Positions 55,932-56,185 of a DNA stretch of 64,000 nucleotides are shown here, in pieces. Positions within the stretch are counted from its first letter, which is position 1, and every line of letters starts with the position of its first letter. Below the pieces are notes generated by a model. The model did not search any database. It was not told the origin of the DNA and saw nothing but the letters and a program-made list of their open reading frames with translations. A program made the position numbers and the translations under genes. Source of the stretch: Promethearchaeota archaeon (lineage in GTDB: Archaea; Asgardarchaeota; Lokiarchaeia; Sigyniarchaeales; SOKP01); the NCBI GenBank assembly GCA_019058295.1, contig JAHPZI010000030.1, positions 1-64,000 on the forward strand, given 5' to 3'.

Positions 55932-56185
55932 TTAGCCTCCTCCGGCTCCTGGAGTTAAAATCCAAGTAAACATTCCAAGATGTCCTAGAATTACGATTAA
56001 AATTAAGGTCGCTGCCAGCAATACCGTACTTATTGGACCAATTTTTACACCTATGCTTGAATCCTCAAAGAAGCGCATTTAATCTTTTAAGAGATTTATT
56101 CTGTTAAAATTAGACCTGCGCCTCCAAGTGGCATCGGACTAGTTTTACTTCTTCTTTTTTTCCTTCTTGACTGTCTACGAGACAT
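55932..56185 (-). CDS. sec61b: Preprotein translocase subunit Sec61beta, spliced: complement(join(55932..56078,56111..56185)), 73 aa
   Basis: Not in ORF track. Spliced product MSRRQSRRKKRRSKTSPMPLGGAGL|MRFFEDSSIGVKIGPISTVLLAATLILIVILGHLGMFTWILTPGAGGG has the basic N-terminus, AGL.RF motif, KI.P and a single TM. Confidence 0.88.
56079..56110 (-). other. Putative 32-nt canonical BHB mRNA intron in Sec61beta
   Basis: Minus strand: GGAGGCGCA-GGUC-UA^A-UUUUAA-cAGAauaaaUCUc-UUAAAA-GAUU-AA^A-UGCGCUUCU: 9-bp outer helix, 4-bp central helix, two 3-nt bulges, 6-bp inner helix. Confidence 0.88.

What the first reader, a model, noticed from the sequence alone, without database searches (positions are those of the whole stretch)
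55932..56185. Hidden Sec61beta gene split by a canonical 32-nt BHB intron
The apparent intergenic gap between mazG and the ribophorin-like gene encodes Sec61beta in two frames. The RNA folds into a textbook hBHBh': GGAGGCGCA/UGCGCUUCU (9 bp, exon-exon), GGUC/GAUU (two G-U pairs), bulges UAA and AAA, UUUUAA/UUAAAA. Excising 56110-56079 gives GGT CTA ATG CGC TTC TTT = G-L-M-R-F-F, the family AGL.RF motif. Unspliced RNA stops 4 codons into the insert. Both exons are intact, which argues against a pseudogene. Caveat: exon 2 begins with ATG and could yield a 48-aa product on its own.
Basis: partly seen in the sequence, partly recalled or inferred. Interest (0 to 1): 0.9.

Follow-up and report, generated by a model that had tools for sequence, protein, structure and literature searches.

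The report
tRNA-type intron splits Asgard Sec61beta gene
The only Sec61beta (protein-translocon subunit) gene of this Asgard archaeon is interrupted by a 32-base insert shaped like the introns archaea cut out of tRNAs, so its mRNA almost certainly has to be spliced, something the papers I could search report inside a coding sequence for only one other archaeal gene (cbf5).

Summary
On the minus strand, exon 1 (56185-56111), a 32-nt insert (56110-56079) and exon 2 (56078-55932) encode one 73-aa Sec61beta.

The insert sits in a strict hBHBh' motif: 9-bp exon-exon helix, 4-bp central helix, two 3-nt bulges and a 6-10-bp inner helix. Cutting after the second nucleotide of each bulge restores GGAGLMRFFEDSSIG. 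That motif is uninterrupted in all 29 relatives inspected.

- I found 11 distinct intron-bearing alleles in independent MAGs and metagenomes, with six intron variants. One is a 30-nt in-frame variant that still carries a stop.
- All substitutions in the outer and central helices keep pairing; the inner helix stays 91% paired.
- Exon 1 is under purifying selection.
- Intron alleles use rare codons (CGC, GGC, CTA) that build the outer helix. No intron-less allele does.
- The genome has two EndA paralogues and a tRNA-Gln that needs a non-canonical intron removed.
- RtcB is missing from this 79%-complete assembly but is present in all five congeners tested.

There is no RNA evidence. The reading is strongly supported (about 0.88).

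This scan has already noted tRNA-type introns in Asgard protein genes on other DNA (194 notes in at least 49 genomes), and this same stretch was read in another window. In passing, rtcB itself carries a 29-nt BHB intron in two congeners.

The parts
56111..56185 (-). Sec61beta exon 1 (25 codons, basic N-terminal region ending GGAGL)
   Evidence: The frame is intact in all 11 intron-bearing alleles, with mostly synonymous change (pN/pS 0-0.28).
56079..56110 (-). 32-nt BHB intron, phase 0, with an in-frame TAA at its positions 13-15
   Evidence: It is absent from 29 relatives and single-copy in the genome. Six sequence variants are found elsewhere.
55932..56078 (-). Sec61beta exon 2 (48 codons plus stop; conserved RFFEDSSIG box and C-terminal membrane anchor)
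   Evidence: Pfam PF03911. It is the only Sec61beta match in the genome.
56117..56125 (-). Outer helix h, 5' strand GGAGGCGCA (in exon 1)
   Evidence: Pairs 9/9 with 56077-56069 in all 7 distinct sequences of the aligned motif region. The 29 intron-less alleles reach a mean of 5.6/9 and a maximum of 8/9.
56113..56116 (-). Central 4-bp helix H, 5' strand GGUC
   Evidence: 100% paired in the alignment. One G-U becomes G-C in L038.
56110..56112 (-). Bulge 1 (UA|A); the predicted 5' cut is between 56111 and 56110
   Evidence: Geometry. The rule of cutting after the second bulge nucleotide is from PMC2738675.
56085..56109 (-). Inner hairpin h' (UUUUAA-C-AGA, loop AUAAA, UCU-C-UUAAAA)
   Evidence: The C-C mismatch becomes C-G in G007 and L035 and G-C in L038.
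56081..56084 (-). Central helix H, 3' strand GAUU (in the intron)
56078..56080 (-). Bulge 2 (AA|A); the predicted 3' cut is between 56079 and 56078. The third nucleotide is the A of Met26 AUG
56069..56077 (-). Outer helix h, 3' strand UGCGCUUCU (in exon 2; includes the rare CGC Arg codon)
   Evidence: CGC is 4.7% of Arg codons in the long ORFs of the window and occurs in 0/29 intron-less alleles.
56224..56230 (-). TATA-like box (TTTTATA) about 40 nt upstream of the exon-1 ATG. Inferred promoter; not tested
   Evidence: Seen. The surrounding sequence is conserved in G007. This is inference only.

Best explanation
Sec61beta of this Asgard (Promethearchaeota/Lokiarchaeia-type) archaeon is transcribed as a pre-mRNA carrying a 32-nt bulge-helix-bulge intron between codons 25 and 26. 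The exon 1 end, the intron and the exon 2 start fold into a strict hBHBh' motif.

The two-subunit splicing endonuclease EndA, the enzyme that removes this genome's tRNA introns, cuts after the second nucleotide of each 3-nt bulge. An RtcB-type ligase then joins the exons (GGU CUA | AUG CGC), and the 73-aa tail-anchored translocon subunit can be translated. Unspliced RNA yields only a 29-aa basic peptide.

Shown: the motif, its exact register with the conserved protein, its conservation, and the presence of EndA. Inferred: cleavage, ligation and translation of the joined mRNA.
For: 1. Removing exactly 56110-56079 restores GGAGLMRFFEDSSIG, which is uninterrupted in all 29 relatives inspected. 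It raises the Pfam Sec61_beta score from 27.1 to 35.7 bits. The product aligns across the junction to solved mammalian Sec61beta.
2. The motif is a strict BHB whose cut sites fall on the required boundaries. No shuffle reached h >= 9 with h' >= 6.
3. The same insert at the same site occurs in congener G007 and in at least 11 independent assemblies: 11 distinct alleles and 6 intron variants.
4. Over the 7 distinct sequences of the motif region, 96% of cells pair, against 29-61% when partners are slid. All changes in h and H are GC<->GU. The C-C mismatch in h' is closed independently as C-G and as G-C.
5. In L035 the intron is 30 nt and in frame, yet it still carries a TAA and the same BHB.
6. 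Exon 1 evolves under purifying selection in the intron-bearing alleles: pN/pS is 0-0.28, and 8 of the last 20 codon columns vary synonymously only.
7. Intron alleles use GGA GGC GCA GGT CTA / ATG CGC TTC. CGC is 4.7% of Arg codons and is found in 0/29 intron-less alleles. Outer-helix potential is 9/9 against a mean of 5.6/9.
8. This is the only Sec61beta match in G000 and in the 99%-complete G007. The gene is found in 89 of 90 high-quality genomes of the phylum.
9. Machinery: there are two EndA paralogues of about 200 aa, matching the (alpha-beta)2 broad-specificity type reported for Asgard (PMC5829648). A tRNA-Gln 2.7 kb away becomes canonical only after removal of a non-canonical 30-nt intron. 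RtcB is present in G007 and four other congeners.
Against: - No transcript, junction read or peptide is available; splicing is inferred.
- RtcB was not found in this assembly by Pfam profile or by the congener's protein, although the assembly is only 79% complete.
- The central helix is weak (two G-U pairs) and is not part of the thermodynamic MFE.
- Covariation is not significant against shuffles (58/500), because the alleles are closely related.
- Exon 2 starts with its own AUG, so a 48-aa product is formally possible.
- Sec61beta is dispensable in yeast (my knowledge), so essentiality alone cannot prove the gene is expressed.
Confidence: 0.88

Rival explanations
1. The insert is not removed. 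Only exon 2 is translated from its own AUG (56078) as a 48-aa, N-terminally truncated Sec61beta, and exon 1 is a vestige or an upstream small ORF.
For: Exon 2 begins with ATG and alone still reaches the Pfam cut-off (27.1 bits). Gene callers annotate exactly this 47/48-aa product in many assemblies. Some archaeal Sec-beta proteins are only about 50 aa (my knowledge).
Against: - Exon 1 stays open in the correct frame in 11 alleles, with mostly synonymous change.
- All 29 uninterrupted relatives encode the basic N-terminal region fused to the same box.
- The AUG lies in bulge 2 and the 9-bp GC-rich outer helix with no Shine-Dalgarno-like sequence in the intron (inference).
- This reading does not explain the conserved BHB or the helix-building rare codons.
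Confidence: 0.04
2. Translational recoding: ribosomes bypass the 32 nt, hopping as in phage T4 gene 60, instead of the RNA being spliced.
For: A stop codon lies shortly after the take-off region, and a stable hairpin sits in the gap. Both are superficially like gene 60 (my knowledge).
Against: - Bypass needs matching take-off and landing codons. Here take-off is CUA, but the codon before AUG is UAA, or UAU in L035.
- The conserved features are those of a BHB: 3-nt bulges, a 4-bp helix and an exon-exon helix.
- The same genome holds tRNA introns of the same geometry.
Confidence: 0.03
3. A decaying pseudogene or an assembly artefact: the 32 nt are a chance insertion that killed the gene.
For: The insert breaks the frame, and loss of Sec61beta may be tolerated (my knowledge from yeast).
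Against: - It is found in at least 11 independent assemblies from different samples.
- Both exons are intact and under purifying selection despite exon-2 pS up to 0.71 between alleles.
- There is no second copy in G000 or in the 99%-complete G007.
- Structure-preserving substitutions occur within the insert.
Confidence: 0.02

Closest known systems
cbf5 pre-mRNA BHB intron of Crenarchaeota (Desulfurococcales, Sulfolobales; Watanabe 2002, Yoshinari 2006, Yokobori 2009 = PMC2738675)
   Same: - A short BHB intron inside a protein-coding sequence.
- Predicted cuts fall between the second and third bulge nucleotides.
- It is linked to a hetero-oligomeric EndA.
- The distribution among close relatives is patchy and implies gain and loss.
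   Different: - A different gene (Sec61beta) and a different phylum (Asgard).
- Here the motif is strict (3-4-3 with a 9-bp exon helix), whereas the cbf5 motifs are often relaxed.
- cbf5 splicing was shown by cDNA and in vitro cleavage. Here there is no RNA evidence.
Non-canonical BHB introns of Asgard tRNA genes (bioRxiv 10.64898/2026.10.13.758758; PMC5829648)
   Same: The geometry, size range (about 30 nt) and presumed enzyme are the same. A tRNA-Gln with such an intron lies 2.7 kb away.
   Different: The host is an mRNA. [quoted passage not shown]
HAC1/XBP1 unconventional mRNA splicing in eukaryotes (IRE1 cut, RtcB or Trl1 ligation)
   Same: Works alike: a small non-spliceosomal intron (26 nt in XBP1) is removed by a protein endonuclease plus an RNA ligase, and removal changes the reading frame and therefore which protein is made. 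This comparison rests on my knowledge; RtcB acting on HAC1 is cited in the reference list of PMC5829648.
   Different: The endonuclease (IRE1) and its recognition motif (twin stem-loops) are different. It is stress-regulated, and nothing here shows regulation. It is not a member of that family.
Sec61beta / Sbh1 / archaeal Sec-beta family (Pfam PF03911)
   Same: The spliced product passes the family threshold. It aligns to residues 42-89 of mammalian Sec61beta and has the C-terminal anchor.
   Different: None at the protein level. Only the gene structure is unusual.

Membership tests
Archaeal BHB (hBHBh') intron, EndA substrate | [quoted passage not shown] | tested here: met
   Bulges UAA and AAA, helix GGUC/GAUU. 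H is 100% paired in the 7 distinct sequences of the motif region.
Archaeal BHB (hBHBh') intron, EndA substrate | Flanking helices h (exon-exon) and h' (intron) of at least 2 bp | tested here: met
   h is 9 bp. h' is 6 bp, or 10 positions with one mismatch.
Archaeal BHB (hBHBh') intron, EndA substrate | Cutting after the second nucleotide of each bulge yields a functional mature RNA | tested here: met
   Removal of 56110-56079 gives an in-frame 73-aa Sec61beta. Its junction peptide equals that of 29 uninterrupted relatives.
Archaeal BHB (hBHBh') intron, EndA substrate | The splicing endonuclease is encoded in the genome | tested here: met
   Two PF01974 matches above cut-off in ORFs of 201 aa each.
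Archaeal BHB (hBHBh') intron, EndA substrate | An RtcB-type ligase is encoded in the genome | tested here: inconclusive
   Not found in G000, which is 79% complete. Present in G007, the other intron-bearing genome, and in 4 more congeners.
Archaeal BHB (hBHBh') intron, EndA substrate | Cleavage and ligation observed in RNA (junction reads, circular intron, in vitro cut) | not testable with these tools
   No transcript data could be queried.
Sec61beta (PF03911) | Profile match above the gathering score | tested here: met
   35.7 bits against a cut-off of 27 for the spliced product.
Sec61beta (PF03911) | Conserved box followed by a single C-terminal hydrophobic anchor, collinear with solved Sec61beta | tested here: met
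   Query residues 12-59 align to residues 42-89 of 2wwb_C. The hydrophobic stretch ISTVLLAATLILIVILGHL is read directly from the translation.
Programmed translational bypass (T4 gene 60 type) | Matching take-off and landing codons flanking the gap | tested here: not met
   Take-off is CUA. The codon preceding AUG is UAA, or UAU in L035.

The most novel reading that the evidence does not exclude
tRNA-type (EndA/RtcB) splicing of mRNAs is a routine layer of gene expression in this Asgard lineage, not a one-gene oddity. Besides Sec61beta, a MoxR-type AAA+ gene in the same window is split by a 29-nt BHB-like insert. In two congeners the ligase gene rtcB is itself split by a strict 29-nt BHB intron inside its GYDINCG active-site motif, so RtcB would be needed to mature its own mRNA. 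If so, splicing could also gate how much full-length Sec61beta, and hence which translocon composition, is made, as HAC1/XBP1 splicing gates a transcription factor in eukaryotes.
Probability: 0.5. Interest if true: 0.9.

Novelty: new member of a known kind. Interest (0 to 1): 0.78.

Why it matters
In the papers I could search, BHB introns inside coding sequences are documented only for cbf5 of Crenarchaeota.

This case matters for four reasons:
- **New gene, new phylum.** A second, unrelated gene is involved: a core subunit of the Sec61 translocon, in the archaeal group closest to eukaryotes.
- **Strong comparative support.** The evidence includes intron-less and intron-bearing alleles, structure-preserving changes, and codon choice bent to the RNA structure.
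- **Annotation error.** Standard annotation miscalls the gene as a 48-aa fragment in at least 11 assemblies, so Asgard proteomes are being mis-annotated.
- **Bearing on intron evolution.** It makes protein-enzyme mRNA splicing in the relatives of the eukaryotic ancestor testable. It also shows how introns spread into and are lost from coding genes.

Tried and rejected
- **Repeated or mobile element.** The intron with its flanks occurs once in the genome at up to 3 mismatches.
- **Rfam.** No family matched 55000-60000 at E <= 1.
- **ARAGORN on the raw window.** It found no tRNA. The tRNA-Gln appears only after the 30-nt insert is removed by hand.
- **Wider distribution.** A scan of 400 genomes of the phylum showed the split only in G000 and G007 among the listed matches. 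Five further genomes with several matches had paralogues or contig-edge fragments, not splits. 235 weaker matches were not listed, so I can say only 'not found in those inspected'.
- **Metagenome scan with an 18-nt exon/intron junction word.** It gave 4 loci, of which 2 were unrelated chance hits (L064, L065).
- **Covariation statistics.** The direction is as expected, but the result is not significant against column shuffles (58/500).
- **A spliced cDNA among database proteins.** The closest 74-aa proteins (P0006, P0007) lie on ordinary genomic contigs with the usual neighbours, so they are intron-less alleles, not transcripts.
- **RtcB in G000.** Not found by Pfam profile or by the congener's protein.
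- **Translational bypass, pseudogene and assembly artefact.** All three were considered and rejected; see the rival explanations.

Full report
**1. What is in the sequence**

On the minus strand an ATG at 56185 opens a 25-codon frame ending GGA GGC GCA GGT CTA (56111). The next 32 nt (56110-56079) contain an in-frame TAA after four codons. At 56078 a second frame starts with ATG CGC TTC TTT and runs 48 codons to a stop, with the ORF ending at 55932. Joining 56111 to 56078 gives one 73-aa frame.

The joined product scores 35.7 bits against Pfam Sec61_beta (cut-off 27, profile positions 2-36). Exon 2 alone scores 27.1 bits (positions 6-36), and exon 1 alone matches nothing. The joined product aligns without a break, residues 12-59, to residues 42-89 of mammalian Sec61beta in solved translocon structures (2wwb_C and 24 other entries). 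This locus is the only Sec61_beta match in the 3.2-Mb, 79%-complete assembly.

**2. The RNA motif**

Read 5' to 3', the RNA runs as follows:
- GGAGGCGCA: outer helix h, 5' strand
- GGUC: central helix H, 5' strand
- UA|A: bulge 1
- UUUUAA-C-AGA, loop AUAAA, UCU-C-UUAAAA: inner helix h'
- GAUU: H, 3' strand
- AA|A: bulge 2
- UGCGCUUCU: h, 3' strand

This is the strict hBHBh' layout, with each strand reading helix, H, bulge. The published cutting rule places the cut between the second and third bulge nucleotides (PMC2738675). That rule puts the cuts at 56111|56110 and 56079|56078, which are exactly the boundaries needed for the protein.

RNAfold predicts the 9-bp and inner helices and leaves the weak central helix inside a 7x7 internal loop (-20.8 kcal/mol, z = -2.8). 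RNAalifold on the alleles gives the same picture.

I wrote a scanner for strict BHBs: H of 4 bp, 3-nt bulges, introns of 12-120 nt.
- Minimal motifs (h and h' of at least 3) are no rarer than chance in this 29.5% GC DNA: 1596 observed against about 1450 in shuffles.
- The motif alone therefore proves little. However, h >= 9 with h' >= 6 occurred in 0 of 12 shuffles.
- This site is the best-scoring strict BHB in the window whose removal merges two ORFs.
- The real argument is the coincidence of register. Only about 1e-4 of (position, length) pairs carry even a minimal BHB. That figure is my arithmetic.

**3. Relatives without the insert**

A six-frame search of 60 related genomes found full-length, uninterrupted matches to residues 2-72 of the joined protein, up to 89% identical. 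In all 29 loci inspected the peptide across the junction reads GGAGL(M/I)RFFEDSSIG, or a near variant, with no gap. The 32 nt are therefore an insertion relative to the family, and their precise removal recreates the family sequence.

In a 400-genome sample of the phylum, 373 genomes have the gene, including 89 of 90 high-quality ones. Among the listed matches only G000 and G007 show the split.

**4. Relatives with the insert**

G007 is another species of the same genus and is 99% complete. It has a 32-nt insert at the same site with two substitutions and no other convincing copy of the gene.

Searching the protein collection with exon 2 returned seven distinct 47/48-aa 'proteins' starting exactly at MRFFEDSS. 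Their contigs, plus one more from a DNA-pattern scan, all carry exon 1, the insert and exon 2. Together there are 11 distinct alleles from NCBI MAGs, ENA, JGI and Logan assemblies, with six intron variants.

The variation is informative:
- The outer and central helices are paired in 100% of cells, and the only changes there are G-C to G-U or the reverse.
- The C-C mismatch in the inner stem is closed as C-G in G007 and L035 and, through the opposite strand, as G-C in L038.
- Two variants differ only in the loop.
- L035 has a 30-nt intron that is in frame. It still contains TAA, keeps the bulges and the central helix, and has a one-pair-shorter inner stem.
- Overall 96% of cells pair, against 29-61% when the 3' partners are slid by 1-3 columns.
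- The shuffle control is not significant (58/500), because the alleles are close kin. I count this as conservation of structure, not as statistical covariation.

**5. Both exons are under selection, and codons serve the helix**

Among the intron-bearing alleles, the last 20 codons of exon 1 show synonymous-only variation at 8 columns and amino-acid change at 2. Nei-Gojobori pN/pS for exon 1 is 0-0.28 in seven comparisons with the window. For exon 2 it is 0.11-0.98. Exon 1 is thus read in its frame, which argues against both the pseudogene and the exon-2-only readings.

The five codons that form h and H (GGA GGC GCA GGT CTA) and ATG CGC are invariant in all 11 alleles, although window and L035 differ at pS = 0.71 in exon 2. 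The 29 intron-less alleles vary freely at those codons and mostly use AGA or AGG for Arg. None uses CGC, which is 4.7% of Arg codons in long ORFs of the window. GGC and CTA are each about 10%. Outer-helix potential is 9/9 in the intron alleles, against a mean of 5.6/9 and a maximum of 8/9 in intron-less ones.

**6. Machinery**

- Two EndA-family genes of 201 aa each pass the Pfam threshold. This fits the (alpha-beta)2 type with broad specificity that was reported for Asgard archaea (PMC5829648; also bioRxiv 10.64898/2026.10.13.758758).
- The genome visibly depends on such splicing. A tRNA-Gln(UUG) at about 58832-58936 is found by ARAGORN only after 58881-58910 is removed.
- RtcB was not found in G000, which is 79% complete. 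It is present in all five congeners tested, including G007.

**7. History**

I built a maximum-likelihood tree from MazG plus Sec61beta (172 columns, so weakly resolved). Eight intron alleles fall in one clade together with the intron-less pair G002/G006. The intron-bearing L035 lies outside it, next to the intron-less G021 and G022. The tree needs 2-3 changes of state.

The L035 intron is clearly homologous to the others, with the same exon helices and the same 5' and 3' intron ends. One gain followed by precise losses is therefore the simplest reading, as was proposed for cbf5. This is inference.

An intron-less allele (L074) keeps GGA GGC GCA GGT CTA but has AGA TTT on the 3' side. That would fit a recent loss, but it is not proof.

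**8. Rivals**

- **Exon-2-only translation.** It cannot explain the selection on exon 1, the conserved BHB or the rare codons.
- **Ribosomal bypass.** It lacks a landing codon matching CUA; the codon before AUG is UAA or UAU.
- **Pseudogene or artefact.** It is contradicted by at least 11 independent assemblies with intact exons.

**9. Comparison with what is known, and novelty**

The papers I could search describe BHB introns in coding sequences only for cbf5 of Crenarchaeota. None of the searches found Sec61beta or Asgard mRNA introns. The mechanism is the known one. The gene and the phylum are new, hence 'new member of a known kind'.

Earlier notes of this scan report the same kind of intron in many Asgard genomes and in other genes of this genome. 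These are unchecked AI notes and I do not use them as evidence. I did check two of them, the tRNA-Gln and the MoxR insert.

**10. Verdict**

What is missing is RNA or protein evidence for the junction.

Noticed in passing
L071 about 359-387 (G006:C13, about 33458-33486) and the same site in L072 (G002:C3): The RNA ligase gene rtcB of two congeners, which have intron-less Sec61beta, is split by a 29-nt frame-shifting insert inside the conserved GYDINCG motif. The insert is a strict BHB: H is UUGG/CCAA, the bulges are AUA and AAA, h' is 9 bp and h is 2 bp. Removing it restores GGVGYDINCG. The two copies differ by a loop change and by a U-A to U-G change. G001, G004 and G007 have uninterrupted rtcB.
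   Followed up: partly
window 2337-2365 (+): A 29-nt BHB-like insert (H of 4 bp, h 2, h' 4) lies between two ORFs that are halves of one AAA+ (MoxR-type) domain. The upstream half hits AAA_22 positions 4-33 and the downstream half hits AAA_3 positions 56-129. Removal merges 112 and 217 codons and reads I-G-S-F-D-P at the junction.
   Followed up: partly
window about 58832-58936 (+), insert 58881-58910: tRNA-Gln(UUG) is interrupted by a 30-nt intron at a non-canonical position near the variable loop and T arm. ARAGORN and Rfam miss the gene in the raw sequence. After the insert is removed, ARAGORN calls a normal 75-nt tRNA.
   Followed up: yes
L035:1450-1516 (GCA_030605085.1, JAUWBH010000014.1) and L036: A more distant lineage carries a 30-nt in-frame version of the Sec61beta intron. 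It keeps a TAA and the BHB. Its neighbourhood has an epimerase gene where the window has a hexapeptide transferase.
   Followed up: partly
L074:531-755: An intron-less Sec61beta allele keeps the exon-1 helix codons GGA GGC GCA GGT CTA but has AGA TTT on the 3' side. It may be the footprint of a recent precise intron loss.
   Followed up: no
window 56288-58123 (+): A 611-aa gene is transcribed divergently from Sec61beta, 102 nt away. It has no Pfam hit here at E <= 0.01, but its orthologue next to L035 carries a precomputed Ribophorin_I (PF04597) hit. That would pair an OST-type subunit gene with a translocon subunit gene.
   Followed up: no
window 7338-7363 (+), 8866-8839 (-), 62693-62723 (+): Other high-scoring strict BHB motifs (h + h' of 12-14, 26-31 nt) did not pass my ORF-merging filter. 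They may be chance hits, in-frame inserts or non-coding RNA introns.
   Followed up: no
L037 (ENA ERZ27256796, 567-nt contig): Exon 1 and the intron are identical to those of G007, but the exon-2 protein is only about 79% identical to the window's. This may be a recombinant allele or a chimeric short contig.
   Followed up: no
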